Of a DNA stretch of 64,000 nt, positions 13,780 to 60,516 are shown piece after piece; the first letter of the stretch is position 1, and every line of letters begins with the position of its first letter. The stretch is from assembly GCA_947630625.1 (NCBI GenBank), contig CANRIL010000011.1, positions 2,065 to 66,064 of the forward strand, in the 5' to 3' direction. Position numbers and translations under genes: made by a program. The notes beneath the pieces were generated by a model. That model was not told where the DNA came from and did not search any database. It worked only from the letters and a program-made list of their open reading frames with translations. Source of the DNA: an uncultured Clostridia bacterium. Its GTDB lineage: Bacteria; Bacillota; Clostridia; Oscillospirales; CAG-272.

Positions 13780-13808
13780 TTGCATTTTTGCCGAAGATAT
13801 TTTATAAT
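13780..13808 (+). promoter_or_regulatory. Near-consensus sigmaA promoter upstream of the STAND NTPase gene
   Basis: TTGCAT (13780-13785), 17 nt, then TATAAT (13803-13808). Confidence 0.6.
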
Positions 13809-13890
13809 GAATTTCGGATGTGGTGCCAAAGCCGAGCCGAAATTTCCGGCGGCTTTACGACATAAACAAAACAAAAGGGCGGGGCCGCGA

Positions 13891-19079: not shown

Positions 19080-19956
19080 TCTTTGCTCCCCCGCGTTCAT
19101 ACGCGAGCTGATGGAGCGCTTCAACATCTCGTTCCGCCACGAGTTCGGGCAGAATTTTCTCATAAACGGCGCAATTCCCAAAAAAATTGCCGCCGCCTCC
19201 GTCGGCGGCAGCGGCGGCTGCGTGCTTGAGATAGGCCCCGGCATCGGGACCATGACGCGCGAGCTCTCGCGCCTCGCCGACACCGTTGCCGCGGTCGAGA
19301 TTGACCGCTCGCTGATCCCGGTCCTCGAATACACGCTTTCCGACTGCGAAAACGTCACCGTCATAAATAACGACATTATGAAATGCGATATCGACGCGCT
19401 GACGCGCGATGTTTTCTGTGGGCGAGAATATCACGTCTGCGCAAATCTGCCCTACTACATCACGACGCCTATAATAATGAAGCTGCTCGAAGAAGGCGGG
19501 GAACGGCTCCGCTCGGTCACGATCATGATCCAGACCGAGGTCGCCGCCCGCATCACCGCCGCGCCCGGCACATCCGAATACGGCTCCATCACCGCCTCCG
19601 TCGCCTACTTCGGCACGGCAAAAAGGCTTTTCACCGTCTCGCCCGGCAGCTTTCTGCCGGCTCCGAAAGTGACCTCGACCGTCGTCAGGATCGACATTTA
19701 CCGCCCGGACGAGCGCCCCGTAAAGCCCCGCGACGAAAAAGTCATGTTCCGCGTCATATCAGCCGCTTTTGGGCAGCGCCGAAAGACGCTGCCGAACGCG
19801 CTTTCCGCCGGATTCCCGGCATTATCAAAATCGGACGCCTCAGATCTTCTCGCCTCGCTCGGGTACGACCCGCGCGTTCGCGGCGAGGCGCTTGGCACAG
19901 CCGATTTTGCCAAAATCGCGGATGAGATCGTGAATCGAGGCGAAGCGAATGGATAA
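19066..19956 (+). CDS. rsmA: 16S rRNA (adenine1518/1519-N6)-dimethyltransferase
   Basis: FGQNFL, SAM motif VLEIGPGIGTMT, and NLPYYITTPI. Confidence 0.9.
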   Translation: MENFDLCSPAFIRELMERFNISFRHEFGQNFLINGAIPKKIAAASVGGSGGCVLEIGPGIGTMTRELSRLADTVAAVEIDRSLIPVLEYTLSDCENVTVINNDIMKCDIDALTRDVFCGREYHVCANLPYYITTPIIMKLLEEGGERLRSVTIMIQTEVAARITAAPGTSEYGSITASVAYFGTAKRLFTVSPGSFLPAPKVTSTVVRIDIYRPDERPVKPRDEKVMFRVISAAFGQRRKTLPNALSAGFPALSKSDASDLLASLGYDPRVRGEALGTADFAKIADEIVNRGEANG

Positions 19957-21760
19957 ATACGGAATTTTAAAGACATATTTCGGCTACGACACCTTCCGCC
20001 CCGGGCAGGAACAGATCGTGGACGCTCTCGCGAGCGGGCGCGACGTTTTGGCCGTCATGCCGACAGGCGCGGGAAAATCTATCTGCTACCAGACCCCGGC
20101 GCTCCTTTCGGACGGCATCACGGTCGTAGTCTCGCCGCTCATCTCCTTAATGAAGGATCAGGTCGCCTCTCTCATCAAATCCGGCGTCCCCGCCGCGTAT
20201 CTCAACAGCTCGCTGACGTACGAACAATATATGCTCGCGCTCTCGCGGATGCAGGCCGGGAGATATAAGATCGTCTACGTCGCGCCGGAGCGCCTTTCAA
20301 GCCCGCGATTTCTTGAGGTCTGCCGGTCTGTCAGCGTTTGCATCGTCGCGGTCGACGAGGCGCACTGCGTTTCTCAGTGGGGGCAGGATTTCAGACCCGA
20401 TTATCTCAAAATAGCCGACTTCATACATTCGCTGCCCCGCCGTCCCGTCGTCGGCGCGTTTACCGCGACGGCGACCGACCGCGTTCGCGACGACATACGC
20501 AAAATTCTTGACCTCGACTCCCCCGTCACGGTCACGACGGGATTTGACCGGCCGAATCTGTTTTTCAGCGTGCTGACGCCGGAAAAGAAAACGGAAAAGC
20601 TGCTCTCGCTTATACGCGAACGGCGCGGCAGGTCAGGCATAATATACTGCGCGACGCGGCGCTCGGTCGAGGACGTTTGCGAAATGCTGCTGCGCGCCGG
20701 AGTCCCGGCGACGCGATACCATGCCGGGCTCACCGCCGAGGAACGGCAGAAGAATCAGGACAGCTTCGTCTCCGACCTCACCCCCGTCATCGTCGCGACA
20801 AACGCCTTCGGCATGGGGATCGACAAATCAAACGTCTCATTCGTCATCCACTACAACATGCCGAAAAACATAGAGAGCTACTATCAGGAAGCAGGACGTG
20901 CGGGACGCGACGGCGAACCGGCGGAATGTATCCTGCTTTACGGTCCCCACGACATAATCACCGCAAAATTCCTCATCAATAATTCCGAACCGAATCCCGA
21001 CCTCTCGGAAGAGGAACAAGCATCCGTCCGCCAAAGCGAGCTTTCAAGGCTCGAAGATATGATACGGTACGCAACCGGTACCGGCTGCCTGCGCGCCTTT
21101 ATCCTGCGCTATTTCGGGGAGGCGACCGGCGACTTTTGCGGCGCGTGCTCAAACTGCCTTGAATCATACGAATCGGAGGACATAACGGAGGACGCGAAAT
21201 GCGTGCTCCGCTGCGTTGCCGAGACGCAGCAGCGCTACGGCATGTCGCTGATCTCGGAAGTCCTGAAGGGGAGCAGCAGCGAACGTATTTCCCGCCTTGA
21301 CAGGGCGGGATCGTTCGGCGCGCTCCGAACATACACGCTCGCCAAAATAAAAAACATCATAAGCGCGCTTTTGACGGACGGGTTTCTCACCGCGGACGGC
21401 GAATATCCCGTGCTCACGCTGACTGAACGCTCCGCAGACGTTCTTTACGGCGGAGCGCACGTGAAAATGAAGGTGCTCGGCAAAAAGAAGAAGGAGCCGG
21501 AGATGAAAAAAACTTCTTCGTCCCAAGCCCTCACAGGCGAGGACAGCGAACTGCTCACAGAGCTCAAGCGGCTTCGCGCCCGGCTCGCGCGGGAGGAAAA
21601 CGTCCCCGCCTACATCATCTTTACGGACGCGACACTAACGGACATGTGCCGCAAAAAGCCGCGCGACATGACGGAAATATTGCGCGTAACCGGCGTCGGC
21701 GAGCGCAAACGCGACAAATACGGGATGCAGTTTCTCGGCGTCATAGAAAAATTCGTCTGA
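19949..21760 (+). CDS. recQ: ATP-dependent DNA helicase RecQ
   Basis: FGYDTFRPGQEQIV, Walker A MPTGAGKS, DEAH box VDEAHCVSQWGQDFRPDY, RecQ-Ct zinc cluster (CGACSNC), and a C-terminal HRDC-like domain. It overlaps rsmA by 8 nt. Confidence 0.92.
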   Translation: MDKYGILKTYFGYDTFRPGQEQIVDALASGRDVLAVMPTGAGKSICYQTPALLSDGITVVVSPLISLMKDQVASLIKSGVPAAYLNSSLTYEQYMLALSRMQAGRYKIVYVAPERLSSPRFLEVCRSVSVCIVAVDEAHCVSQWGQDFRPDYLKIADFIHSLPRRPVVGAFTATATDRVRDDIRKILDLDSPVTVTTGFDRPNLFFSVLTPEKKTEKLLSLIRERRGRSGIIYCATRRSVEDVCEMLLRAGVPATRYHAGLTAEERQKNQDSFVSDLTPVIVATNAFGMGIDKSNVSFVIHYNMPKNIESYYQEAGRAGRDGEPAECILLYGPHDIITAKFLINNSEPNPDLSEEEQASVRQSELSRLEDMIRYATGTGCLRAFILRYFGEATGDFCGACSNCLESYESEDITEDAKCVLRCVAETQQRYGMSLISEVLKGSSSERISRLDRAGSFGALRTYTLAKIKNIISALLTDGFLTADGEYPVLTLTERSADVLYGGAHVKMKVLGKKKKEPEMKKTSSSQALTGEDSELLTELKRLRARLAREENVPAYIIFTDATLTDMCRKKPRDMTEILRVTGVGERKRDKYGMQFLGVIEKFV

Positions 21761-47603: not shown

Positions 47604-48587
47604 ATGTATACACTTCTCAGAGATCTCATTAAGCCTCTCGGCGTCTCCGGCAGGGAAGCTCCGGTGCGCGCCGCGATCGAAACTATGATAGCCCCGTTTG
47701 TCGACGAGGTCTACACTGACGCGCTCGGCAATCTCATCGCGCACAAACGCGGGGGAGAGGGCGCGAAGAAGCTGATGTTCGCCGCGCACATGGATGAAAT
47801 CGGATTTTTCGTCACCGACGTTGACGACGCGGGCAGAGTCTTCTTCTCACCCGCGGGCGGCATCAGGTTTGAGGCTGCCGCATACAGCGAGGTCATATTT
47901 GAAAACGGCACGCGCGGGCTGCTCGTCGCGAACGACGACGCAAAAACGCCCGCCGCCGATAACTGCTACGTCGATATAGGCGTCTCTTCCCGCCGCGAGG
48001 CGGAGCGCCGCGTAAAGACGGGCGACACGTTTGCCGTCGTATCGTCGATCCGCCGCATAGGCGCGCACACCGTCGCCGGCAGACCTATAGACGACCGGGT
48101 CGGCTGCGCCGTCCTGATCGAAACGGCGAAGCGCGTAAAGTCGTCAAAGTACGATTTATACTACACGTTCACCGTACAGGAGGAGGTCGGCTGCCGCGGC
48201 TCGAAGACGGCGGCGTATGCCATAATGCCCGATATCGCCGTTGCCGTCGATATCACCAAAACGGGCGACACGCCGGGCGCCGACAGGATGGCGGTCAAGC
48301 TCGGCGGCGGCGCCGCGATAAAGGTGAAGGACACCTCCGCGATCTGCGACCCGGCGCTCGTCGGCGAGATGGCGGAGCTCTGCCGCAAAAACGGGATAAA
48401 GCATCAGCTCGAGATACTGACGCGCGGAGGCACAGACGCCTCCTCCATGCAGTCGGCGGGAGCCGGCAGCCGCGCGGGCTGCATCTCGATACCGACGAGA
48501 TACGCGCACACCCCGCTTGAAATGATCGACATGCGCGACGTTGAGGCATGCGTCGCCCTTGCCGTCGCTGTTGCCGCGGGAGAGTAA
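47604..48587 (+). CDS. M42-family metallopeptidase, paralogue 3
   Basis: FAAHMDEIGF, PIDDRVGC, TVQEEVGCRG, VAVDIT and RYAHTPLE. The last codons lie inside the first unit of the downstream tandem repeat. Confidence 0.85.
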   Translation: MYTLLRDLIKPLGVSGREAPVRAAIETMIAPFVDEVYTDALGNLIAHKRGGEGAKKLMFAAHMDEIGFFVTDVDDAGRVFFSPAGGIRFEAAAYSEVIFENGTRGLLVANDDAKTPAADNCYVDIGVSSRREAERRVKTGDTFAVVSSIRRIGAHTVAGRPIDDRVGCAVLIETAKRVKSSKYDLYYTFTVQEEVGCRGSKTAAYAIMPDIAVAVDITKTGDTPGADRMAVKLGGGAAIKVKDTSAICDPALVGEMAELCRKNGIKHQLEILTRGGTDASSMQSAGAGSRAGCISIPTRYAHTPLEMIDMRDVEACVALAVAVAAGE

Positions 48588-48780
48588 TGCTTATCGGGCA
48601 CATTGCCCGCAAATTCACACTTTGCCGCGATCGCTGAAAGTGAGTGACACTTATCGGGCATATTGCCCGCAATTTCGCTCTTTGCCGCGACGCCGCGGGT
48701 GAGTGACGCTCATCAGACAAATTGCCCGCAATTGCACGCTTTGCCGCGATCGCCGCGGGTGAGCGACGCTTATCAGAGAT
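48571..48780. repeat. Tandem array of about 3.4 units of a 59-60 bp palindrome-containing repeat
   Basis: Units start near 48580, 48640, 48699 and 48759 (GTGAGTGAC.CTTATCGGGCA.ATTGCCCGCAA.T.....CTTTGCCGCGA..GCCGCGG). Each unit has the short hairpins CGGGCA/TGCCCG and CCGCG/CGCGG. Confidence 0.8.
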
Positions 48781-48784
48781 AATA

Positions 48785-48833
48785 AAAATTCCGCCTGTGC
48801 TGATTTTTTCAGCACAGGCGGTCTTTTTCAAAG
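48785..48833. repeat. Copy 1 of a 49-bp perfect direct repeat containing a bidirectional terminator hairpin
   Basis: aaaattccgcctgtgctgattttttcagcacaggcggtctttttcaaag. The 13-bp stem ccgcctgtgctga/tcagcacaggcgg is followed by a T-tail. Confidence 0.9.
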
Positions 48834-48835
48834 CG

Positions 48836-49348
48836 TCAAGCGCGGACGGTGAAAAATTTGAGAAGTTCTCTGCCGGACTCCGGCATTCCACGTTTCATCC
48901 ATTCGATCATCCAGCCAAATATCCCATATGCCCAAAACGATTTCATGTATGCTTCGATATTTGTCATTTCAGGAGTTATTTTTATAGTATTAATAATTGT
49001 TTCCTGCATGATCGAGGCCATTCCTGCCTGATAAAGAATGGTATAAAACTCTTTATGATCCCTGTAAAAATCAAATAAAGAGGGAAAAAGCGTTTCCGGT
49101 GAAGACTCCGGATTCGCTTCGTAAAGCTTCCCCCACTCTTTAATGAGCCGATCGGATTCTTCCCGCAGAATATCCTCTTTTGTTTGGAAATTACGGTAAA
49201 ATGAAACTCTCCCGATCTGCGCTTTTTGCGTTAGTTCGGTTATTGAAATATCAGCAATAGACTTTTCTTTCAATAGTTCCAACAGGGCGTTTGTGATTTG
49301 GCGCTTTACATATGTGTTCTTTTGCTCGTTGTTCATGAGCCGATACAA
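48836..49348 (-). CDS. TetR/AcrR-family transcriptional regulator
   Basis: The N-terminal HTH is ISITELTQKAQIGRVSFYRNFQTKEDIL. It is divergent from the hydrolase genes. Confidence 0.85.
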   Translation of the reverse strand: MYRLMNNEQKNTYVKRQITNALLELLKEKSIADISITELTQKAQIGRVSFYRNFQTKEDILREESDRLIKEWGKLYEANPESSPETLFPSLFDFYRDHKEFYTILYQAGMASIMQETIINTIKITPEMTNIEAYMKSFWAYGIFGWMIEWMKRGMPESGRELLKFFTVRA

Positions 49349-51449: not shown

Positions 51450-51498
51450 AAAATTCCGCCTGTGCTGATTTTTTCAGCACAGGCGGTCTTTTTCAAAG
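51450..51498. repeat. Copy 2 of the 49-bp perfect direct repeat and terminator hairpin
   Basis: Identical to 48785-48833. Partial similarity continues for about 12 nt beyond (tatcacgcgcga versus cgtcaagcgcgg). Confidence 0.9.
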
Positions 51499-51526
51499 TA
51501 TCACGCGCGATGCGCGTTCAGGGCTT

Positions 51527-51985
51527 TTATTCGATGTCGATCCGCTTCGACTCCGGCAGCTCGACATGTTTTTTCGGCATCTTCAGTCTGAGAACGCCGT
51601 TTTCGTATTTGGCGCTGATCTTTCCGGCATCGACGGAAGATATGTCAAACTGGCGGCTGTACTGACCGTACGAGCGCTCCAGACGTACATATTTGCCCTT
51701 CTTGTCGCTGTCCTCATGCTCGGAATGGCGCTCCGCGTTTATCGTCAGAATGTCGCCGGATATCTCGAGGTGGATATCCTTCTTGTCAAATCCCGGCAGG
51801 TCGGCTTCGAGCAGGTAGCTGTCGCCCTGATCGGAAATATCCGTCTTGAATTCCGCGATGTCTCCGCTCTCAAAGAATCCCGTGAACGGTTCCTCAAAGA
51901 AACGCCTTTCGAAATCCTCCATCTCCTTGAACGGATTATATGAGAGCCTGCTGTTCTTTCTGTGGTACGGTCTGAGTTCAAACAT
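51527..51985 (-). CDS. Hsp20/alpha-crystallin small heat-shock protein
   Basis: The alpha-crystallin core runs from DISDQGDSYLLEADLPGFDKKDIHLEISGDILTINAER to SAKYENGVLRLKMPK. GGAGG RBS. Confidence 0.9.
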   Translation of the reverse strand: MFELRPYHRKNSRLSYNPFKEMEDFERRFFEEPFTGFFESGDIAEFKTDISDQGDSYLLEADLPGFDKKDIHLEISGDILTINAERHSEHEDSDKKGKYVRLERSYGQYSRQFDISSVDAGKISAKYENGVLRLKMPKKHVELPESKRIDIE

Positions 51986-52172: not shown

Positions 52173-52198
52173 TTAGCACTCCGCGCGGGGAGTGCTAA
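52173..52198. promoter_or_regulatory. CIRCE-like inverted repeat (HrcA operator type) with an 8-nt spacer
   Basis: TTAGCACTC-cgcgcggg-GAGTGCTAA. Both 9-nt arms match the CIRCE consensus exactly, but the spacer is 8 nt instead of the canonical 9. Confidence 0.7.
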
Positions 52199-52267: not shown

Positions 52268-52296
52268 TTGACACACGTATGGATTGATGATATAAT
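52268..52296 (+). promoter_or_regulatory. Perfect consensus sigmaA promoter of the TerB/ATPase/helicase operon
   Basis: TTGACA (52268-52273), exactly 17 nt, then TATAAT (52291-52296). AAAGGAGG RBS precedes ATG 52343. Confidence 0.75.
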
Positions 52297-52342
52297 CAAA
52301 AGATACCAAAACTTATGTTTGCGCACGAAAGGAGGCGGAAAA

Positions 52343-54277
52343 ATGTCCGAAAGACGCGATAATCCGGATGATTTTTGGGACCTCTCCGCGCTGCTGCCGA
52401 AAAAACGTCCGCCCGTCATGCGCGAACGCAAGCCGGACGTTGACACCGTGACGGTCGACATTGAAGCCGCAAAGCAGGGCGACACGCTTAGTTCGCTCTC
52501 CGTCCGCTTCCACGAGGTCGACAGACCGAACGTTGACCTGACGATACACATGAAACCGGGCGCGCCGCGCCCGACGCCAAATCAAAGACAGACACCGAAT
52601 CAAAGACAGGCACCAAATTCAAGACCGACACCGACGCCAAGACAGAAGCCGACTACGGAATCGACCGAGGTCGATATTGCGCCTGAAACGATAAAGATAA
52701 ATTTAGATTCACCTGCCCGCAAAGACGCCGACGCGACGCTTCTGCCGCCGCGCCGGACATACGGGACGACTTCGCGCACCGCCGAGCTCATAGACGAATA
52801 CGAACCGGAGGGCGGGCTTTTGCGCCGCGTCCGCGTTATGCGCTGGCCGTCGAAGTACAGCTTTTACGAGCAGTTCCGCTTTGACGCCATGAGATACGCC
52901 GACATCGCCGGCTCCGAATGCGAACCCGTCAATTTCTTCTCCTATACCCCGCAGTACAGGCAGATGACGAAAGCGCAGCTTTCGTATTATTTCTGGTGGC
53001 GGCAGAACGTCGTCCGCGGGGAATATCTCCCGACGTCGTTTTCCTACATCCTTCTTTATATATATGAGATCATCAACCTCCACGAGAAGATAGCGCCCCC
53101 GGAGGGGCTGCGGCGGCTGCTCGGCGTCTGGCTCGCTTACCGCGGCGCGAACCGCGTGCTCGACAAATATCTCTCCGAATGGGTCGCCGACTATTGTCTC
53201 ATTCACCGTCTGCCCGCGCCGCGCGAGCAGCTTGCGCCCATCATGCCCGCCGTCATGGAATCCGCCTCTTTCCGCGAATTTTATATGTCCGGCTCCGGCG
53301 ACGGCATCACGACCGAGACAATGATCGCACTTTCCTCGGAATACGACTGGCACAAGAGCAAATTCGCCGTCGAAAGCAGCGAGGTTTCGGAGCAGTTCCG
53401 CCGCCACATCACCGGGGCTGTCGGATACGTCGCCGAAAAAAGCGGCGATATAAGGTTTTCATCCGGCGGCATGACATCCGCCGTCGTGTCGCGGGACGCG
53501 TTCTGCGGTTCGCTCTGCGCCCACAACGTCAAGTGCAGGATCGACATCGAATACCTTTCATACACGCGTTCGCGCGAGCTGCGCGCGGTTCTGACCGATC
53601 TTGTCAAATATTGCGAGAACAAAACGCGCGCGGCGCTCGGAATCCGTTCGCGCCTTCGCGTCGCCTCGCTTGAACCGTCCCTTCAGGCGCTCGCGGACGA
53701 ATACTTTGACCGCGAATTCCCGCAGCTAAAAAAGCGTCCGAAGGTTGAGGACGTGACGCCGGATTACGGCGGCGCCTACGACGCGCTCTCGCACGGCTTT
53801 GACGCACAGGGAGCCGCCGAGATAGAGCGCGCTTCATGGGCGTCAACAGACCTGCTCGCCCCGGAGGTGTCAGGCGACTCAAATCCCGATGTATCATTGC
53901 CGCCGACAACATCCACGCCGCGGGCAGAGGTCACAACGCCGCAAGCGGAGATCGCGCCGCCGCAGACAGAGACTGCGCCGCAGGCAAAGGTCGCGCCGCC
54001 GCAGACGGAGGCTCCGCCCGTCGGGACAAACGAGGTCGGCGAGCCTGACGACAGCATATTTGACCGCCTTGACGTGGACGCGGCGGAATTTCTCCGCCTG
54101 ACGCTTGACGGCGGGGACGGGGTGCGCGAATTTTGCCGCTCCCGGTCGCTATATGAGGACGAGCTCGCGGCGCGCATAAACGAGGCCGCCGCGCCGATCA
54201 TAGGCGACATAATCCTTGAGGCGGACGATAACGGCGTTTACCGCATAATCGAGGACTACCGCGACGAAATAACCTGA
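52343..54277 (+). CDS. TerB-N / TerB-C domain protein (SngA-like)
   Basis: The TerB-N-like core is YSFYEQFRFDAMRYA...VNFFSYTPQYRQMTKAQLSYYFWWRQNVVRGEYLPTSFSYILLYIYEIINL. The TerB-C-like tail is LYEDELAARINEAAAPIIGDIILEADDNGVYRIIEDYRDEI. The domains are separated by P/T/Q-rich low-complexity linkers. Confidence 0.8.
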   Translation: MSERRDNPDDFWDLSALLPKKRPPVMRERKPDVDTVTVDIEAAKQGDTLSSLSVRFHEVDRPNVDLTIHMKPGAPRPTPNQRQTPNQRQAPNSRPTPTPRQKPTTESTEVDIAPETIKINLDSPARKDADATLLPPRRTYGTTSRTAELIDEYEPEGGLLRRVRVMRWPSKYSFYEQFRFDAMRYADIAGSECEPVNFFSYTPQYRQMTKAQLSYYFWWRQNVVRGEYLPTSFSYILLYIYEIINLHEKIAPPEGLRRLLGVWLAYRGANRVLDKYLSEWVADYCLIHRLPAPREQLAPIMPAVMESASFREFYMSGSGDGITTETMIALSSEYDWHKSKFAVESSEVSEQFRRHITGAVGYVAEKSGDIRFSSGGMTSAVVSRDAFCGSLCAHNVKCRIDIEYLSYTRSRELRAVLTDLVKYCENKTRAALGIRSRLRVASLEPSLQALADEYFDREFPQLKKRPKVEDVTPDYGGAYDALSHGFDAQGAAEIERASWASTDLLAPEVSGDSNPDVSLPPTTSTPRAEVTTPQAEIAPPQTETAPQAKVAPPQTEAPPVGTNEVGEPDDSIFDRLDVDAAEFLRLTLDGGDGVREFCRSRSLYEDELAARINEAAAPIIGDIILEADDNGVYRIIEDYRDEIT

Positions 54278-54300
54278 AAACGGAGGACAGAACAAAGCAT

Positions 54301-55722
54301 ATGGAATATATAAACATCGAATCGGCTTCCCGTGTCCCGAAGAGAATACTGTCACAGCTTATGAGCTCGCTCTCCGCAGGCGTCGTCCCGCGCGCGGGCG
54401 CGCCTTACATCGCGATAGGGCGGACGGACGAGATCGCCGCCTTGACCTCGGACCTCGCCCGCGTCGCCGAAGGGGAGGGCGCGATGCGCTTTCTGATCGG
54501 CCGTTACGGCTCCGGCAAGAGCTTCCTGATACAGCTTATGCGCGGATACGCGCTTGAACGCGGGTTCATTACCGCGGACTGCGACCTTTCGACGGAACGC
54601 CGCCTTTGCGGCACCTCCGGTTCGGGGCTCGCCACGTACCGCGAGCTTTTGCGCAACCTCGCGACAAAATCCTCTCCCGACGGCGGCGCGCTCTCGCAGC
54701 TTCTGGCGCGCTGGATATCGGAAATCAAATCCTCCGTCGCCGCCTCCGGCGTGCAGCCCGGCACGCCGTCTTTTGACAGCGCGGTCAAAAAGCGCATTTA
54801 CGACACCGTCCGCGCCCTTGAAGACGGCGTCGGCGGCTTTGACTTCGCACTTGTGCTCGCCAGCTACTACGAGGCGTGCGAGGCGGAGGACGAGGACAAA
54901 AAAAGCGCGTGCCTGCGCTGGCTGCGCGGCGAATATTCGACGAAAACCGAGGCAAAAGCGGCGCTGCGCACGGGCTCCATCATAAACGACGACAACTGGT
55001 ACGACGAGATCAAGCTGCTCGCGCGGCTCGCCGTCAGCATCGGATACAGCGGGCTCGTCGTCTTCATCGACGAATGCGTCAATTTATATAAAATCCCTAA
55101 CCGCATTTCGCGCGAGAACAACTATGAAAAGATACTCTCGATGTATAATGACACACTCGAAGGCAGGGCGGAACACTTAATGCTCATATTCGGCGGCACG
55201 CCGCAGTTTCTCGAAGACAGGCGGCGCGGGCTTTTCAGCTATGAGGCGCTGCGCGGGAGGCTTTCGGACGGCAGATTTGACAGCGGCGAATACAAGAACA
55301 TGATAGGACCCGTCATTAGGCTGCGCCGCCTCTCCGACAACGAGCTTCTGGCGCTCGTCCTGCGCGTGACGGCGCTGCATGCGCGCTACTATAACTGGGA
55401 GCCGCGCCTCTCGGACGGCGATCCCGAAGCGTTTGTGCGCGCGTGCCTTGAGCTTGCGGGCGCAAACATAATGGTGACGCCGCGCGAGATCATACGCGAT
55501 TACATCTCGATCCTCAATATCCTCTACCAGAACCCGGACGCAAAATTCGCTGACATCGTGAAGACCTCGCTCACGCTGACGCCCGCCGAAGACGCCGGAG
55601 AAGCCGGTGGGGAGACAGCCGGAAACGTCGGCGCGGGAGGGGGAACCGCCGTAGACGCCGACGTATCAGCGTCTGAAAAAAAGCCCGCGTCCGCCTTTGA
55701 CCCGAACGATATCATAATATAA
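54301..55722 (+). CDS. P-loop ATPase of the DUF2791 / BREX BrxD-like family (SngB-like)
   Basis: SSLSAGVVPRAGAPYIAIGRTDE, Walker A FLIGRYGSGKSFLIQL and Walker B GLVVFIDECVNLY. Confidence 0.75.
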   Translation: MEYINIESASRVPKRILSQLMSSLSAGVVPRAGAPYIAIGRTDEIAALTSDLARVAEGEGAMRFLIGRYGSGKSFLIQLMRGYALERGFITADCDLSTERRLCGTSGSGLATYRELLRNLATKSSPDGGALSQLLARWISEIKSSVAASGVQPGTPSFDSAVKKRIYDTVRALEDGVGGFDFALVLASYYEACEAEDEDKKSACLRWLRGEYSTKTEAKAALRTGSIINDDNWYDEIKLLARLAVSIGYSGLVVFIDECVNLYKIPNRISRENNYEKILSMYNDTLEGRAEHLMLIFGGTPQFLEDRRRGLFSYEALRGRLSDGRFDSGEYKNMIGPVIRLRRLSDNELLALVLRVTALHARYYNWEPRLSDGDPEAFVRACLELAGANIMVTPREIIRDYISILNILYQNPDAKFADIVKTSLTLTPAEDAGEAGGETAGNVGAGGGTAVDADVSASEKKPASAFDPNDIII

Positions 55723-55784
55723 ACCGCATACGTTTTTTAAAGTTAACGAAGGGAGGGGTGCTCTCTCTGGGCACATGATCCGCC

Positions 55785-58046
55785 ATGAGAAACGCCGAAG
55801 AAGTGATAGAGCGGTTCGCTCCGTTCATACAGGAATACATCTATTCGCACGGCTGGGACAGACTGCACGAGGTGCAGCTGCTCGCCGCCGAGACTATCTT
55901 CTGTACGGACAACAACCTGCTTATAACGTCCGCTACCGCGTCCGGAAAGACGGAGGCCGCGTTCTTCCCCATACTCTCCGAATTTTATTCCGACCCGCCG
56001 ACGAGCGTCGGCGCGATATATATCGCGCCGCTGAAAAGCCTCATCAACGACCAGTTTGCCCGCATCGACGAGCTGCTTGACATGACCGGCATTCCCGTTT
56101 ACCATTGGCACGGGGACGTGGCGCAGTCGCACAAGTCAAAGCTGTTGAAGTCGCCGTCGGGGATACTTCAGATCACGCCGGAATCGCTCGAGTCGATGCT
56201 GATGAATCGCCCGAACGACATCCCGCGCCTTTTCGGCGACCTGCGCTACATCATAATCGACGAAATACACACGATGACGAACACCGACCGGGGCAATCAG
56301 GTCATCTGCCAGATAGAGCGAATCTCGCATTCGATCGGCCACCGTCCGCGCAGGATCGGGCTGTCCGCCACCGTCGGCGACCCCGAAAAGGCGGCGCGCT
56401 GGCTCTCCGGCGGCGACACGCGCGACTGCGATATCCCGCGAACGTCCGGAGGCGCGCTGCGCTGGCGGCTCGGACTTGAACATTTCTATCTTGCCGACGA
56501 AGAAACGCTTCACACCGGAACGCACGAGATACGCAAAACGCCCTCCCAGGGCGACCTTGAGCTTTCCCCTGAGGACACCCCGACGGAGATAGACCCCGGC
56601 TACGAATACGTCTACGACTGCGTAAAGGGGCGGCGCGCCCTCGTCTTCTCGAACTCGCGGGAGGAAACCGAATACGTCTGCGCGACGCTGCGGCAGATCG
56701 CGGAAAACAGGCGCGAACCCGACATCTTCCTCATCCACCACGGCAACCTCTCCGCCTCGATACGCGAAGAGGCGGAGCTACTGCTTAAAAGCGAGGAAGA
56801 TACGATGGTGGCGTGCGCCACGGTCACGATGGAACTCGGCATCGACATCGGCAGGCTCGAACGGATCGTGCAGATAGGCTCGCCGAATTCAGTCTCAAGC
56901 TTTCTTCAGCGGCTCGGGCGCTCCGGCAGGCGCGGCGACCCGCCGGAGATGATGATGGTATTCCGCGAGGAACCGCACGTCCCGAACACGCCGCTGCCCC
57001 AGCTCATGCCGTGGGAGCTGCTGCGCGCGATAGCGATCATTCAGCTCTACATCGAGGAACGCTTCATCGAGCCGCCGTCAACGCGAAAAATGCCGTTTTC
57101 GCTCCTCTTTCAGCAGACGCTCTCGATCCTCATCTCGTCAGGCGAGCTGACGCCGAAGCGCCTTGCCGACCGAGTTCTCTCGCTGCCTCCGTTCCGCTTC
57201 GTCGACCGCGAGGATTATAGGACGCTGCTCGTCTCGATGATAAAAAACGATTTTCTTGAATACACGGATGAAGGCGGGCTTATAATCGGTATAAAGGGCG
57301 AACGGCTTACGTCCGGATTCAAATTTTACGCCGTCTTCAAGGATTCCGAGGACTACACTGTCCGCTGCGAATCGGACGAGATCGGCACGATCTCCGAAGC
57401 GCCGCCCGTCGGTGACCGCTTTGCGCTCGCGGGACGCGTCTGGGAGGTCGAGGAACTTGACCTGCCGCGCAAGCTCATATACGTCAAATCGGTCGGCGGC
57501 AAGATGGAAATATCGTGGCCGGGCGAATACGGCGAGATACACACGCGCATACTTGAGCGCATGTACCGCGTCCTCGCCGAGGACACGGAGTACCCGTATC
57601 TTAAAGAGGGCGCCGCCCGAAGGCTTGAGGACGCGCGCCGCGTCGCCCGCAATACGGGGATGCTCGAACGCCCGATCGTCTCACTCGGAGGGCTGTCGTA
57701 CTGCATGTTCCCGTGGCTCGGGACGCGCTCGTTCCGCACGCTGAGGCGCTATCTCTCGAAAAACGCGCAGAAATACAAGATATCGGGCATCGAATTTGAG
57801 GGCTGCTGCTTTATCGAATTCAAGATGGAGCGCGGAGACGCCGCCTCGCTCATGGACAGCATAAACCGCGATTTTATAAACGGCGTCGACAAATATTCTC
57901 TCGTCGGCGACAACGAGACGCCCGCGTTTGACAAATACGACGACTACGTCCCCTCGGAGCTTCTGCGCCGCGCATATACGGAGGAACGGCTGCGCACGGA
58001 CGAGATCGAGGCGCGCGCCAAAAACGGCTGGAAGCTTTACGTCTGA
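55785..58046 (+). CDS. Superfamily-2 DEAD/DEAH helicase, Lhr/BrxHI-like (SngC-like)
   Basis: The Q-motif region is WDRLHEVQ. Walker A is SATASGKTEAAFFP, the DEIH box is YIIIDEIHTM, SAT is LSATVG, and motif VI is QRLGRSGRRG. An extension of about 300 aa follows at the C-terminus. Confidence 0.8.
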   Translation: MRNAEEVIERFAPFIQEYIYSHGWDRLHEVQLLAAETIFCTDNNLLITSATASGKTEAAFFPILSEFYSDPPTSVGAIYIAPLKSLINDQFARIDELLDMTGIPVYHWHGDVAQSHKSKLLKSPSGILQITPESLESMLMNRPNDIPRLFGDLRYIIIDEIHTMTNTDRGNQVICQIERISHSIGHRPRRIGLSATVGDPEKAARWLSGGDTRDCDIPRTSGGALRWRLGLEHFYLADEETLHTGTHEIRKTPSQGDLELSPEDTPTEIDPGYEYVYDCVKGRRALVFSNSREETEYVCATLRQIAENRREPDIFLIHHGNLSASIREEAELLLKSEEDTMVACATVTMELGIDIGRLERIVQIGSPNSVSSFLQRLGRSGRRGDPPEMMMVFREEPHVPNTPLPQLMPWELLRAIAIIQLYIEERFIEPPSTRKMPFSLLFQQTLSILISSGELTPKRLADRVLSLPPFRFVDREDYRTLLVSMIKNDFLEYTDEGGLIIGIKGERLTSGFKFYAVFKDSEDYTVRCESDEIGTISEAPPVGDRFALAGRVWEVEELDLPRKLIYVKSVGGKMEISWPGEYGEIHTRILERMYRVLAEDTEYPYLKEGAARRLEDARRVARNTGMLERPIVSLGGLSYCMFPWLGTRSFRTLRRYLSKNAQKYKISGIEFEGCCFIEFKMERGDAASLMDSINRDFINGVDKYSLVGDNETPAFDKYDDYVPSELLRRAYTEERLRTDEIEARAKNGWKLYV

Positions 58047-58065: not shown

Positions 58066-60516
58066 ATGAAGATAGATTACGACAAAGAATCAAATACCAT
58101 CGCCGTGACCGTACGGGAGCTCGTTGATTTTCTGTGCCGCTCCGGCGACATAGGCGCACGATCGCCCGTCACCTCGGAGGCGGGAAAGCTCGCCCACAAG
58201 CGCGCCGAGGACGCGAGCGGCCCCGCGCTTCTCGAAGTGCCGCTTGAGCTTACGACATCGTGCGACGGCATAAATTACCGCATCACCGGGCGCGCCGACA
58301 TCATCACGCCCGGCGAAGGTCATGACACGGTCGAGGAGCTTAAAACGACTGCGTCGACGTTTCCCGGCTCGAACGCCGCAATCCCGCCCGCCCACATCGC
58401 GCAGTGCGTGCTTTACGCCTATATGTGGTGCGTCGGCAGAGGGCTCGATTCAGCCGCCGCGAGGATAACGTATATCCCGCAAAAGGAGGGACGCGAACGC
58501 AGCTTTGAATGTCTGTTTTCAGTAAATGAGCTCGCGGACACCGTATCTTCCCTGCTTTCAAAATACACGCGCTGGGCGCGCCTCTGCATAGAGCGCGAAG
58601 AAACGCTCCCGAAAGCCGTCAAATCTATACGTTTCCCATACGGCAAGCCCCGCGACGGGCAGGTTGAATTCATGACCGCCGTCGTAAAGGCGGCGCGCAC
58701 GCGCGGGAAACTTTTGATCCAGGCGCCGACGGGCACCGGCAAAACAATGGCGTCGCTATATCCGTCCGTCAAGGTGCTCGGCGCCGGATACGCGGACAGG
58801 ATATTTTATCTGACCGCAAAAACCTCGATCCGCCTCGCCGCGGAGGACGCGGCGGGAGAACTGCTCGCCTCGGCGAGTCAGCTGCGGGCGATCTCGCTTC
58901 TCGCCCGCGAGCGCGTCTGCCCGAACACGGAGGCGCAAACCGCCGAAGCATACTGTTCTGCCGACTTTTGCCCCCGCGCGCGCGGGCACTACGACAGGGT
59001 GACGGACGCGCTCTGGGAGCTCATAGGTGTCGCCGGACGCGGCAAGGTCATAACTCCGGCAGACATAAAGGACACCGCGGAGCGATTCTCTGTCTGCCCC
59101 TACGAGCTTTCGCTTGACGCCGCCGAATTCTGCGACATCATAATCTGCGACTACAACTACGTGTTTGACCCGCGCGTCTACCTCCGCCGCTTTTTCGACG
59201 ACGGCGACGACAATCCGCACCGCGGGGAAAAATATATCCTGCTCTGCGACGAAGCCCACAACCTCGTCGATCGCGCGCGGGAGATGTATTCGGCCTCGAT
59301 CAAGCTCTCCGAGATCGAGCAGCTGCTCCCGGCAACGGAATCGACCGGCGAGCTTTACGCCTCGCTCTTGACGCTTTCGGACTGCGTGCGCTTCCTGCGT
59401 TCATATTTCGAGGAGATCACGCTCGACTCAAAGGGGCGGGAACGCGGGTTTTACGTCAGGGAGGAGCCGTTTTCAGTCATAAGCTCAGCCGCCGCCCGCG
59501 CGGCGGACGCGTGCGGACGCGAAGCGTTCTTCCTGCGGACATCGGATTCAAAGGAAGAGCGGCGTCTTTCGCGCGAGCTATTGAATCTGCGCCGACGGCT
59601 CAGGGACTTTGCCGTGTCCACGGACGGATTTGACAGACGGCATACCGCATACGCCGAAATATTTGACGGGGACATAAAGTGCTCTCACATCTGCCTTGAC
59701 GCCTCGGAGCACCTTGCCTTGCGAATGCGCCGCGCCTCCGCCGTCGTCATGTTCTCGGCGACGCTCGAGCCGCCCGACTATTTTGCCCGCGTGCTCGGCT
59801 GCCGGAATTATAACGCGATCGAGCTTTCATCCCCGTATGACGAATCAAACCTCTGTCTGCTCGCCGCCGACAAGATCAGCACGCGCATGACAGACCGCGA
59901 GGTCAGCGCGCCGGAGATCGCCGCGATGGTGCACACCGTCATATCCGCGAAGACGGGCAACTACATCTGCTATCTGCCGTCTTATCAGTATCTTGAGCTG
60001 ATCGTCCGCGAATTTGAAGGACGGTACGGGCGGGACGGCATCGACATTGTTGTGCAGAAGCGGCACATGACGGAACAGGAGAGAGGAAATTTCCTGTCCG
60101 AATTTTCCCCCGCGCCGACGAAAACGAAGGTCGGCTTCTGCGTGCTCGGCGGCGTCTTTTCGGAAGGCGTCGATCTGCCGGGGGACAGGCTTTCGGGCGC
60201 CGTCATCGTCGGCGTCGGTCTGCCGCAGCTTTCGGCGGAACTGAATCTTCTGCGCGACTACTATGAACGCGTCTGCGAGCGCGGATACGAGTTCGCATAC
60301 GTTTTCCCCGGCATGAACAAGGTGCTTCAGGCAGCCGGGCGCGTTATACGCGGCGAGGACGACCGGGGCGTAGTCCTTTTGATCGACGACCGCTTCGGTT
60401 CGGACGAATATGTATCTCTCTTCCCCTCGCACTGGAGCGGGATGCGCTACGTCGGCAGCCTCCGCGAGCTCGGGCTCGCGCTCACGCAATTCTGGGGCGA
60501 TCGTCCTGCAATATGA
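58066..60516 (+). CDS. Fusion of a PD-(D/E)xK (RecB/Cas4-like) nuclease domain with an XPD/DinG-family Fe-S helicase
   Basis: The nuclease motifs are GRADIITP...VEELKT (D...ExK) and AQCVLYAY (QxxxY). The helicase motifs are Walker A QAPTGTGKTMAS, four Cys between motifs I and II (VCPN, YCSADFCP, VCPYE), the DEAH box LCDEAHNL, and Helicase_C_2-type GVFSEGVDLPG and AGRVIRGEDDRGVVLLID. ATG 58066 lies 20 nt after the upstream stop. Confidence 0.8.
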   Translation: MKIDYDKESNTIAVTVRELVDFLCRSGDIGARSPVTSEAGKLAHKRAEDASGPALLEVPLELTTSCDGINYRITGRADIITPGEGHDTVEELKTTASTFPGSNAAIPPAHIAQCVLYAYMWCVGRGLDSAAARITYIPQKEGRERSFECLFSVNELADTVSSLLSKYTRWARLCIEREETLPKAVKSIRFPYGKPRDGQVEFMTAVVKAARTRGKLLIQAPTGTGKTMASLYPSVKVLGAGYADRIFYLTAKTSIRLAAEDAAGELLASASQLRAISLLARERVCPNTEAQTAEAYCSADFCPRARGHYDRVTDALWELIGVAGRGKVITPADIKDTAERFSVCPYELSLDAAEFCDIIICDYNYVFDPRVYLRRFFDDGDDNPHRGEKYILLCDEAHNLVDRAREMYSASIKLSEIEQLLPATESTGELYASLLTLSDCVRFLRSYFEEITLDSKGRERGFYVREEPFSVISSAAARAADACGREAFFLRTSDSKEERRLSRELLNLRRRLRDFAVSTDGFDRRHTAYAEIFDGDIKCSHICLDASEHLALRMRRASAVVMFSATLEPPDYFARVLGCRNYNAIELSSPYDESNLCLLAADKISTRMTDREVSAPEIAAMVHTVISAKTGNYICYLPSYQYLELIVREFEGRYGRDGIDIVVQKRHMTEQERGNFLSEFSPAPTKTKVGFCVLGGVFSEGVDLPGDRLSGAVIVGVGLPQLSAELNLLRDYYERVCERGYEFAYVFPGMNKVLQAAGRVIRGEDDRGVVLLIDDRFGSDEYVSLFPSHWSGMRYVGSLRELGLALTQFWGDRPAI

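What the first reader, a model, noticed from the sequence alone, without database searches (positions are those of the whole stretch)
52268..58046. Shango-like operon: TerB-N/TerB-C protein, DUF2791 (BrxD-like) ATPase and Lhr/BrxHI-like helicase
Three co-directional genes with short gaps (23 and 62 nt) follow a textbook TTGACA-N17-TATAAT promoter.

- Gene 1 has the TerB-N signature (FFSYTPQYRQMTKAQLSYYFWWRQ) and a TerB-C tail (EDELAARINEAA..GD.I.E....Y.I.EDY).
- Gene 2 is a P-loop ATPase (GRYGSGKSF, VVFIDEC) of the family that supplies BrxD in type 2 BREX.
- Gene 3 is a DEIH-box SF2 helicase of the Lhr/BrxHI type.

This TerB plus ATPase plus helicase order is, to my recollection, the architecture named Shango (SngABC) in the 2022 expanded defence-system screens. 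Comparative genomics of Ter-associated domains had predicted it earlier as a DNA-processing module. Its mechanism, trigger and the role of the TerB domains remain unknown. A Clostridia-type version carrying long P/T/Q low-complexity linkers in SngA would be new material. The operon sits next to an acquired AT-rich cassette, which is consistent with an accessory hotspot.
Basis: partly seen in the sequence, partly recalled or inferred. Interest (0 to 1): 0.85.

Follow-up and report, generated by a model that had tools for sequence, protein, structure and literature searches.

The report
Shango anti-phage operon in a Clostridia genome
These three genes are a standard member of the known Shango anti-phage defence family, which routine tools would find; what is unusual is that it sits at one fixed chromosomal site across related gut Clostridia and may be switched on by DNA damage.

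Summary
Three co-directional genes lie at 52343-54277, 54301-55722 and 55785-58046, with gaps of 23 and 62 nt, behind a perfect TTGACA-17-TATAAT promoter.

PADLOC models call them SngA (3.3e-46), SngB (3.3e-163) and SngC (5.2e-241). Each beats its BREX counterpart by a wide margin, so this is Shango, a defence system validated in E. coli and P. aeruginosa. I found no mechanistic study.

It is a new member of a known kind:
- The SngA family has about 3,900 sequence clusters.
- The low-complexity linkers are typical of the Clostridia clade.
- SngB homologues sit on 694 plasmids.

- SngA has TerB_N and TerB_C but no TerB domain proper, and its predicted fold has no solved relative.
- The SngC model matches the mycobacterial Lhr helicase core over its full length.
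- The operon is not in a defence island. It occupies the same site next to a core DinG-like nuclease-helicase in seven related genomes, and SngC is as conserved as AsnS.
- A motif matching the clostridial LexA operator (GAACN4GTTY) follows the promoter in 6 of 16 Shango loci. The window copy has one mismatch. This suggests SOS control.

Interest is moderate to low.

The parts
52268..52296 (+). Sigma-A-type promoter: -35 TTGACA (52268-52273), 17-nt spacer, extended -10 TGaTATAAT (52288-52296)
   Evidence: It is a 12/12 consensus match with TG. It is invariant in the alignment of five orthologous loci. Near-consensus promoters precede sngA in 12 of 16 Shango loci.
52309..52320 (+). LexA-operator-like inverted repeat AAACTTATGTTT, one mismatch from the clostridial consensus GAACnnnnGTTT, about +6 to +17 from the predicted transcription start
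   Evidence: This is a unique sequence in the window. The orthologous position holds perfect GAACN4GTTY boxes in L085, L005, L087 and L177; L089 and L174 carry perfect boxes elsewhere in the promoter or leader. The consensus comes from PMC4234289. Enrichment: 6 of 16 loci against 0.19 expected.
52330..52335 (+). Ribosome-binding site AGGAGG, 7 nt before the sngA ATG
   Evidence: Read directly from the sequence.
52343..54277 (+). sngA, 644 aa. Layout: conserved N-terminal peptide (aa 9-22, DDFWDLSALLPKKR); disordered linker (aa 25-145); ordered core including TerB_N (aa 146-465); helix (aa 488-505); disordered linker (aa 511-570); TerB_C (aa 571-644)
   Evidence: PADLOC SngA 3.3e-46. Pfam TerB_N 5e-17 and TerB_C 3e-5. 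AlphaFold2 model and per-region confidence. Per-region conservation. Gene call of 644 aa on identical contigs.
52577..52646 (+). Imperfect 18/36-nt tandem DNA repeat that encodes the PTPNQRQ-type repeats of SngA linker 1
   Evidence: Tandem Repeats Finder.
53916..54018 (+). Imperfect 21/39-nt tandem DNA repeat that encodes the P/T/Q/A/E repeats of SngA linker 2
   Evidence: Tandem Repeats Finder.
54301..55722 (+). sngB, 473 aa, AAA+ ATPase of the DUF2791/BrxC_BrxD family. Walker A is GRYGSGKS and Walker B is VVFIDE
   Evidence: PADLOC SngB 3.3e-163 against BrxD 1.4e-49. Pfam BrxC_BrxD 9e-155. NCBIfam BREX_BrxD scores 169 bits, below its 350-bit cut-off.
55785..58046 (+). sngC, 753 aa, Lhr-like SF2 helicase. 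Motif I is ATASGKT, motif II DEIH, motif III SAT, motif VI QRLGRSGRR
   Evidence: PADLOC SngC 5.2e-241. AlphaFold2 model with pTM 0.81. The best PDB match is the Lhr core 5v9x, E 1.2e-27, TM 0.68 over the full length.
58066..60516 (+). Neighbour gene, probably co-transcribed: DinG/XPD-like helicase (816 aa) with an N-terminal RecB/Cas4-like PD-(D/E)XK nuclease domain. It is not a Shango component
   Evidence: Pfam DEAD_2, Helicase_C_2 and a weak PDDEXK_1. The gap after sngC is 19 nt with no predicted terminator. Of 160 homologue loci, 159 lack Shango. Shango and this gene are adjacent in seven related genomes.

Best explanation
This is a complete, apparently functional Shango (SngABC) anti-phage defence operon in an uncultured gut Clostridia bacterium.

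**Shown here**
- All three proteins match the Shango models over nearly their full length.
- They are adjacent in A-B-C order behind a conserved strong promoter.
- The ATPase and helicase catalytic motifs are intact.

**Inferred mechanism**
- SngA is the sensor or adaptor. It is the fastest-evolving component. It is built as a conserved N-terminal peptide on a disordered tether of about 120 aa, a well-folded TerB_N core, a second tether, and a small TerB_C domain with helix-helix-helix-strand-strand topology.
- SngB is an ORC/Cdc6-type AAA+ ATPase. It would act as an ATP-driven switch or loader for SngC.
- SngC is an Lhr-type helicase. By analogy with Lhr it would translocate 3'-to-5' on single-stranded DNA or unwind RNA:DNA hybrids in phage replication or transcription intermediates.
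- None of the three proteins has a recognisable nuclease domain. Interference is therefore either non-degradative or relies on host nucleases.
- In this clade the operon may be repressed by LexA and induced by DNA damage, and it reads through into a DinG-like nuclease-helicase gene.
For: **Family identity**
- PADLOC: SngA 3.3e-46 (model positions 24-523 of 528), SngB 3.3e-163, SngC 5.2e-241. Each is far above the BREX models.
- Pfam: TerB_N, TerB_C, BrxC_BrxD, DEAD and Helicase_C.

**Arrangement and motifs**
- Gene order, spacing and promoter.
- Promoter conserved in orthologous loci.
- Catalytic motifs read directly from the translations.

**Conserved triad in 16 Shango loci**
- This covers Clostridia, Paenibacillus, Bacillus and Enterobacteriaceae. 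L086 carries two inserted genes between sngB and sngC.

**Mobility**
- SngB homologues occur on 694 plasmids, 542 of them conjugative.
- Serine recombinases flank L087 and IS elements flank L181. This fits a mobile defence cargo.

**Experimental basis for the family**
- Shango protects against phages in E. coli and P. aeruginosa.

**Component roles**
- SngC model matches the Lhr core 5v9x at TM 0.68.
- The BrxD-BrxHI dyad has been proposed as a helicase loader and helicase (PMC12839542).
- Identity to the window across six syntenic relatives: SngA 59-34%, SngB 83-69%, SngC 94-75%.

**LexA-type box**
- Present in 6 of 16 loci against 0.19 expected.
Against: - No phenotype is available for any Clostridia Shango.
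- The locus is not in a defence island and no other defence system was detected in the window.
- It is present at the same site in all seven related genomes sampled. SngC is as conserved as AsnS (94/94, 90/91, 92/90, 87/88 and 80/83% in five relatives). Both points are atypical for defence genes.
- The mechanism steps for SngA, SngB and SngC are analogy, not data.
- No solved structure or structural relative exists for SngA, and no solved structure related by sequence for SngB.
- The window's own LexA-like box has a mismatch in a conserved half-site base.
Confidence: 0.85

Rival explanations
1. In this Clostridia clade the TerB_N / AAA+ / Lhr-like triad has been domesticated as a chromosomal DNA-damage or replication-stress module. 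It would be controlled by LexA and work with the adjacent DinG-like nuclease-helicase, rather than serving mainly as phage defence.
For: - The locus is fixed in seven related genomes. Protein identities fall in step with AsnS and AspAT, which points to vertical descent.
- In L177 the cassette is inverted in place but is still next to the DinG-like gene.
- Gaps between sngC and the DinG-like gene are 3-28 nt in four genomes.
- SngC is as conserved as an aminoacyl-tRNA synthetase.
- GC content matches the host genome.
- A LexA-type box sits in the promoter.
- The closest solved structures are DNA-repair helicases: Lhr and MrfA.
- No defence island surrounds the operon.
Against: - The same protein families give experimentally shown phage defence.
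- The triad is widely plasmid-borne and patchy at larger phylogenetic scale.
- 159 of 160 DinG-like loci lack Shango, and nine of 16 Shango loci lack a DinG-like neighbour. The pairing is therefore lineage-specific, as a single ancestral insertion would produce.
- In L087 the two are separated by unrelated genes, one on the opposite strand.
- Close relatives were mostly found by searching with Shango proteins, so the sample is biased towards carriers.
Confidence: 0.12
2. The BrxD-like and BrxHI-like genes are a remnant of a type 2 BREX (Pgl) system.
For: SngB hits Pfam BrxC_BrxD and PADLOC BrxD (1.4e-49). SngC hits PADLOC BrxHI (1.4e-125).
Against: - The Sng models score three-fold and two-fold higher than the Brx models.
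- NCBIfam BREX_BrxD scores 169 bits against a 350-bit cut-off.
- No PglZ, PglX, BrxC or PglW-type hit was seen among the ORFs tested. The flanking genes are hsp20 and a DinG-like helicase.
- The pair is preceded by a TerB_N/TerB_C gene in every locus examined.
Confidence: 0.02

Closest known systems
Shango (SngABC), validated from E. coli (Millman et al. 2022) and P. aeruginosa PA14 (Johnson et al. 2023)
   Same: - The same three protein families in the same order: a TerB_N/TerB_C protein, a DUF2791 AAA+ ATPase and an Lhr-like DEAD/DEAH helicase.
- Near-full-length matches to the PADLOC Sng models.
   Different: - The host is Clostridia. Against enterobacterial plasmid copies, SngB is 36-38% and SngC 31% identical, and SngA similarity is not detectable by tblastn.
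- The operon is solitary on the chromosome, not in a defence island or hotspot.
- It is vertically retained at one locus.
- A LexA-type box occurs in a subset of Bacillota promoters but not upstream of the two enterobacterial copies checked.
- It is probably co-transcribed with a DinG-like gene.
BrxD-BrxHI dyad of type 2 BREX (Pgl)
   Same: A homologous ATPase plus helicase pair, tightly linked. BrxD is an ORC/Cdc6-type AAA+ ATPase. BrxHI combines an SF2 core, a winged helix, a beta-barrel and an Lhr-CTD-like domain (PMC12839542).
   Different: - There is no PglZ, PglX, BrxC or PglW here.
- The partner is a TerB_N/TerB_C protein instead.
- Scores fall below the BrxD equivalog cut-off.
Lhr-core helicase (M. 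smegmatis Lhr, PDB 5v9x) and MrfA/YprA (6znp)
   Same: The four-domain architecture is shared. The SngC model aligns to 5v9x over its full length at TM 0.68/0.66. Sequence E-value is 2.3e-27.
   Different: - Sequence identity is about 19%.
- SngC is far below the NCBIfam equivalog cut-offs for the Lhr-type families: TIGR04121 201 bits against 850, NF007284 96 bits against 1496.
- Lhr acts alone in DNA repair, whereas SngC is always paired with SngA and SngB.
Other TerB-associated defence systems (Bunzi BnzA, Dionysus DinB)
   Same: They carry Ter-family domains of unknown role in phage defence.
   Different: - Those proteins are reported to carry the TerB domain proper, together with membrane or pore-forming partners.
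- SngA has only TerB_N and TerB_C, no TerB domain (PF05099) hit at E <= 0.01, and no predicted transmembrane segment.

Membership tests
Shango (SngABC) | SngA: protein carrying TerB_N and TerB_C domains | tested here: met
   PADLOC SngA 3.3e-46, model positions 24-523 of 528. Pfam TerB_N 62.8 bits against a 25-bit cut-off. TerB_C 24.7 bits, marginally below its 26.3-bit cut-off, but most homologues carry it.
Shango (SngABC) | SngB: DUF2791/BrxC_BrxD-family P-loop ATPase | tested here: met
   PADLOC SngB 3.3e-163, model positions 4-418 of 439. Pfam BrxC_BrxD 516 bits. Walker A and Walker B are intact.
Shango (SngABC) | SngC: DEAD/DEAH-box (Lhr-like) helicase | tested here: met
   PADLOC SngC 5.2e-241, model positions 7-714 of 720. 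Motifs I, II (DEIH), III and VI are intact. The predicted structure matches the Lhr core.
Shango (SngABC) | Three genes adjacent and co-directional in one operon | tested here: met
   Gaps of 23 and 62 nt, one upstream promoter, and no strong internal terminator on the + strand.
Shango (SngABC) | Confers resistance to phage infection | not testable with these tools
   Shown only for the E. coli and P. aeruginosa systems. No Clostridia system has been tested in the papers I searched.
Shango (SngABC) | Located in a defence island or on a mobile element (typical but not required) | tested here: not met
   The neighbours are M42 peptidases, hsp20, a DinG-like helicase, asnS and an aminotransferase. 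No other PADLOC system was found among the ORFs tested. Other members do sit beside recombinases or IS elements, or on plasmids.
BREX type 2 (Pgl) | PglZ/BrxZ, BrxC/PglY and PglX present alongside BrxD and BrxHI | tested here: not met
   None was found among the ORFs tested in the window or in the 16 Shango loci. BREX_BrxD scores 169 bits against a 350-bit cut-off.
Lhr helicase family (orthologue) | Score above the equivalog cut-offs, with the four-domain Lhr core | tested here: inconclusive
   The fold criterion is met (5v9x TM 0.68). The sequence cut-offs are not: TIGR04121 scores 201 against 850, and WH_Lhr 19.6 against 27. SngC is Lhr-like but not an Lhr orthologue.
TerB domain proteins (PF05099) | Presence of the TerB domain proper | tested here: not met
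   No PF05099 hit at E <= 0.01. Only TerB_N and TerB_C were found.
Clostridial LexA (SOS) regulon | GAACnnnnGTT(T/C) operator at or overlapping the promoter | tested here: inconclusive
   The window has AAACTTATGTTT, one mismatch, 12 nt after the -10. Perfect boxes occur in six of 16 Shango loci against 0.19 expected from shuffles. The consensus is from PMC4234289. LexA binding was not tested.

The most novel reading that the evidence does not exclude
In a family-level clade of gut Clostridia, and in at least one Paenibacillus plasmid, Shango would be an SOS-controlled module.
- A LexA operator on the transcription start would keep a very strong promoter shut until DNA damage or phage-induced single-stranded DNA triggers LexA cleavage.
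- In the window's clade the same transcript would also deliver a DinG-like RecB-nuclease/XPD-helicase. That protein could supply the nuclease activity that SngABC itself lacks.
- This would name a trigger for a defence system whose activation signal is unknown. It would also blur the line between DNA repair and immunity.
Probability: 0.2. Interest if true: 0.6.

Novelty: new member of a known kind. Interest (0 to 1): 0.35.

Why it matters
As a defence-system annotation this is routine, because PADLOC or DefenseFinder would call it. Its value lies in what the comparative data add to a system I found no mechanistic study of.

- **Evolutionary rates.** Within one vertically inherited locus, SngA diverges fast while SngC is as constrained as a tRNA synthetase. 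This points to SngA as the specificity or sensing subunit.
- **SngA fold.** The TerB_N core is confidently predicted yet has no solved relative, so it is a worthwhile structural target.
- **Regulation.** A LexA-type operator recurs on Bacillota Shango promoters. This gives a cheap, testable hypothesis for when the system is expressed.
- **Repair neighbour.** Long-term linkage to a DinG-like nuclease-helicase raises the question of whether some Shango systems borrow, or have become, DNA-repair functions.

Tried and rejected
- **SngA fold searches.** Foldseek against the PDB and against viral predicted structures gave nothing better than E = 0.097. Weak matches of about 75 residues to winged-helix domains (MukF, NcsB1) are only a hint about TerB_C.
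- **PDB sequence searches.** The SngA profile search and the SngB search found nothing significant.
- **RNA families.** Rfam over 48-64 kb gave no hit at E <= 0.1, so there is no riboswitch or leader RNA, including before asnS.
- **Leader folding.** The sngA leader folds no better than shuffles, z = 0.64.
- **Unbiased search for close relatives.** A metagenome scan with the DinG-like protein gave a best identity of 41%. Whether the site is ever empty in very close relatives remains open.
- **Viral collections.** The viral contig scan with SngC gave one 33% locus, and the phage records gave no SngB match. Shango here is not phage-borne.
- **SOS boxes in enterobacteria.** No E. coli-type box (CTG-N10-CAG) lies upstream of two enterobacterial plasmid Shango operons. 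The LexA link is not universal.
- **DinG-like gene as source of the LexA box.** Rejected. Only four of 75 DinG-like upstream regions in non-Shango genomes carry a box.
- **DinG-like gene as a fourth Shango gene.** Rejected as a general feature.
- **Small ORFs after sngC.** L086 and L178 share a small two-transmembrane protein, but the window has no equivalent.
- **Literature.** The Anantharaman et al. 2012 paper could not be retrieved. What I say of it rests on its citation and on my own recollection.

Full report
**1. What is there**

The region holds three co-directional ORFs on the + strand.
- The mechanical start of the first ORF (TTG 52268) is actually the first base of a -35 hexamer.
- The true start is ATG 52343, seven bases after an AGGAGG. 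It encodes 644 aa. Gene calls on sequence-identical metagenome contigs give the same length.
- The promoter is TTGACA (52268-52273), 17 nt, TATAAT (52291-52296), with an extended -10 TG. It is the only 12/12 match in the 9.6 kb scanned.

**2. Identity**

- PADLOC-DB models match all three proteins over almost their whole length: SngA 3.3e-46, SngB 3.3e-163 and SngC 5.2e-241.
- The related BREX models score far lower: BrxD 1.4e-49 and BrxHI 1.4e-125.
- Pfam gives TerB_N (5e-17), TerB_C (3e-5, 24.7 bits against a 26.3-bit cut-off), BrxC_BrxD (9e-155), DEAD and Helicase_C.
- NCBIfam's BrxD equivalog is far below its cut-off, 169 against 350 bits.
- No hit to the TerB domain proper appears. "TerB protein" here means TerB_N plus TerB_C only.
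- The Walker A (GRYGSGKS), Walker B (VVFIDE) and helicase motifs (ATASGKT, DEIH, SAT, QRLGRSGRR) are intact.
- No BREX core gene was seen among the ORFs tested. The locus is a Shango system, not a BREX remnant.

**3. What is known**

- Shango was reported as a TerB / ATPase / helicase system that protects E. coli about 10-fold against two phages, and P. aeruginosa 10-100-fold against several phage families.
- Papers up to 2025-2026 still describe the role of the TerB-type protein as unclear.
- I found no mechanistic or structural study.
- The homologous BrxD-BrxHI pair of type 2 BREX has been analysed computationally. BrxD is an ORC/Cdc6-type AAA+ ATPase proposed to load or activate BrxHI. BrxHI is an SF2 helicase with a winged helix, a beta-barrel and an Lhr-CTD-like domain (PMC12839542).

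**4. Anatomy of the proteins**

SngA (AlphaFold2 model built with 120 sequences, mean pLDDT 78):
- a short N-terminal helix (aa 10-17);
- a disordered stretch to about aa 145;
- a very confident core at aa 146-465 (pLDDT mostly above 90), which includes TerB_N;
- a helix at aa 488-505;
- a second disordered stretch at aa 511-570;
- a confident C-terminal domain at aa 571-644 with helix-helix-helix-strand-strand topology.

Mean identity to the query over 119 homologues, by region:

| Region | Mean identity |
|---|---|
| N-terminal peptide (DDFWDLSALLPKKR) | 43% |
| Core | 47% |
| TerB_C | 38% |
| Linker 1 | 9% |
| Linker 2 | 8% |

- The linkers vary in length across the clade. The N-terminal linker ranges 14-285 aa with a median of 75, against 134 in the query. 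The C-terminal linker ranges 61-140 aa with a median of 82, against 108 in the query.
- In the window both linkers are encoded by imperfect tandem DNA repeats. They are a family trait, not a novelty of this locus.
- Neither Foldseek (PDB, BFVD) nor a profile search of PDB sequences finds a relative of SngA.
- A sequence search of the PDB finds no solved relative of SngB.

SngC:
- The model (pTM 0.81) aligns over its full length to the M. smegmatis Lhr core: 5v9x, E 1.2e-27, TM 0.68/0.66.
- The next matches are MrfA/YprA, then Hel308/Hjm.
- This confirms the Lhr-type call structurally.

**5. How common is it**

- A profile of SngA finds 3,863 representatives of 50%-identity clusters (1,195 at E <= 1e-30) among 1.84 billion representative proteins.
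- SngC has at least 8,000 homologues, and the top 120 are all at least 66% identical.
- SngB homologues lie on 694 plasmids, including 449 from Klebsiella and 144 from Salmonella. Of these, 542 are conjugative.
- SngB homologues are absent from 50,697 phage records.
- The A-B-C triad is conserved in all 16 loci inspected. L086 has two genes inserted between sngB and sngC.

**6. Genomic context**

The window around the operon encodes housekeeping and carbohydrate-metabolism genes.
- Upstream are three M42 peptidases, then a TetR plus two-hydrolase cassette, then hsp20.
- Downstream are a DinG/XPD-like helicase with an N-terminal RecB/Cas4-like nuclease domain, then asnS and an aminotransferase.
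- No further defence system was recognised among the ORFs tested.
- The operon's GC content (0.59-0.62) matches the surrounding core genes.

The DinG-like neighbour:
- Searching one genome per species with the DinG-like protein gave 80 loci. About 20 keep the DinG-like/(AsnS)/AspAT synteny, but only the closest, L005, has Shango upstream.
- Eighty metagenome loci likewise lack it.
- The DinG-like gene is therefore a widespread core gene and not a Shango component.

Seven related genomes, including the window, carry Shango at this same site. Percent identity to the window:

| Locus | SngA | SngB | SngC | DinG-like | AsnS | AspAT |
|---|---|---|---|---|---|---|
| L085 | 59 | 83 | 94 | 73 | 94 | 90 |
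| L092 | 53 | 80 | 90 | 64 | 91 | 85 |
| L091 | 51 | 79 | 92 | 63 | 90 | 83 |
| L005 | 47 | 76 | 87 | 59 | 88 | 82 |
| L177 | 39 | 69 | 80 | 54 | 83 | 78 |
| L087 | 34 | 70 | 75 | 51 | - | - |

- The orderings agree across all proteins, which indicates one ancient insertion followed by vertical descent.
- In L177 the cassette is inverted in place, between the same flanking genes (arabinofuranosidase and M42 on one side, DinG-AsnS-AspAT on the other).
- SngC is as constrained as AsnS. SngA is the fastest-evolving protein even within its folded core (78% in L085).
- The sngC to DinG-like gap is 19 nt in the window and 3-28 nt in three relatives, with no predicted terminator. The DinG-like gene is therefore probably co-transcribed.
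- The caveat is that most close relatives were found by searching with Shango proteins. The sample is biased towards carriers.

**7. A possible regulatory element**

- Aligning the sngA upstream regions of five syntenic genomes shows that the flanks diverge, but the promoter and the first 40 or so transcribed bases are nearly invariant.
- That leader contains (G/A)AA(C/A)-N4-GTTT. The clostridial LexA operator is GAACnnnnGTTT/C, as found at lexA, recA, ruvC and uvrB of C. difficile (PMC4234289).
- Perfect boxes lie 10-12 nt after the -10 in L085, L005, L087 and L177.
- A perfect box lies farther downstream in L089, and inside the promoter spacer of a Paenibacillus plasmid Shango (L174).
- The window (AAACTTATGTTT, 52309-52320), L091 and L092 each carry one mismatch at the orthologous position.
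- Six of 16 upstream regions have a perfect box. Dinucleotide shuffles give a mean of 0.19 and a maximum of 3 in 2,000 trials. The background rate is 0.015 per 270 nt, and the binomial probability is 8e-8.
- Some of these loci share ancestry. Counting L085 and L005 as one still gives 2e-6.
- DinG-like upstream regions in non-Shango genomes carry a box in only four of 75 cases, so the box travels with Shango.
- Two enterobacterial plasmid operons have no E. coli-type SOS box.
- I regard LexA control as a reasonable hypothesis for part of the Bacillota Shango family. It is uncertain for the window itself.

**8. Mechanism (inferred)**

- SngA is the sensor or adaptor: tethered peptide, TerB_N core and TerB_C domain, and the most variable subunit.
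- SngB is an ORC/Cdc6-like ATP switch or loader.
- SngC is an Lhr-type 3'-to-5' translocase acting on phage single-stranded DNA or RNA:DNA intermediates. The polarity and substrate preference are my recollection of published Lhr biochemistry, not tested here.
- No nuclease domain is recognisable in the three proteins. Interference is either non-degradative or uses host nucleases, possibly the co-transcribed DinG-like nuclease-helicase in this clade.
- Only the domain identities and intact motifs are shown. The rest is analogy.

**9. Verdict**

Three points lift it slightly above routine: core-like retention beside a repair helicase, the rate asymmetry between SngA and SngC, and the LexA-type box. 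Interest is 0.35.

Noticed in passing
window 52173-52198: A CIRCE-like inverted repeat (TTAGCACTC-N8-GAGTGCTAA, the HrcA operator type) lies upstream of the minus-strand hsp20 gene (51527-51985), about 70 nt before the Shango -35. The L085 orthologue has TTAGCGCTC-N9-GAGTGCTAA. This suggests HrcA control of hsp20.
   Followed up: partly
window 48785-48844 and 51450-51509: A 60-nt direct repeat (95% identical), each copy containing a 13-bp-stem terminator hairpin, brackets the low-GC TetR plus two alpha/beta-hydrolase cassette. This looks like an insertion at, or duplication of, a terminator. The cassette is separate from Shango.
   Followed up: partly
window 48573-48781: About 3.5 tandem copies of a 59-60-nt unit (79-84% identical) lie directly after the third M42 peptidase gene. 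They have no spacers, so this is not a CRISPR array. Their nature is unknown.
   Followed up: no
window 58066-60516: The DinG/XPD-like helicase has an N-terminal RecB/Cas4-like nuclease domain. The motifs GRADI, EELK and QCVLY can be read in the sequence, and cysteines typical of an Fe-S domain are present. The gene is widespread in Bacillota and here starts 19 nt after sngC.
   Followed up: partly
window 13780-17208: A 1,142-aa ORF has only an N-terminal DUF4062 hit (1.9e-13) and no PADLOC match. It lies 2.7 kb upstream of a RecQ gene (19949-21760). Its function is unknown.
   Followed up: no
window 19066-19956: A 296-aa ORF overlapping the start of recQ matches the PADLOC mad2 model (2.9e-15). 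No other MADS component was seen among the ORFs tested.
   Followed up: no
L086 13067-13857: Two small genes (a YbaK/tRNA_edit-like gene and DUF3795) are inserted between sngB and sngC in one Clostridia Shango operon.
   Followed up: no
L173 10590-13136; L175 8409-8990: Variable DNA-related genes follow sngC on Bacillota plasmids. In C. estertheticum a UvrA-like ABC ATPase (UvrA_DNA-bind plus ABC_tran) starts 18 nt after sngC. In P. peoriae a phospholipase-D-like protein lies two genes downstream, and SngA there is 1,052 aa.
   Followed up: partly
L086 16356-16607, L178 11389-11634, L089 16421-16651: A small protein of about 80 aa that looks like a two-transmembrane-helix protein is encoded convergently just after sngC. 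The L086 and L178 copies are 51% identical, and the L089 copy looks similar. The window has no equivalent.
   Followed up: partly
L087 774-6413: Three large serine recombinase genes lie immediately upstream of a Shango operon. That operon is still only 2.5 kb from the DinG-like orthologue.
   Followed up: no
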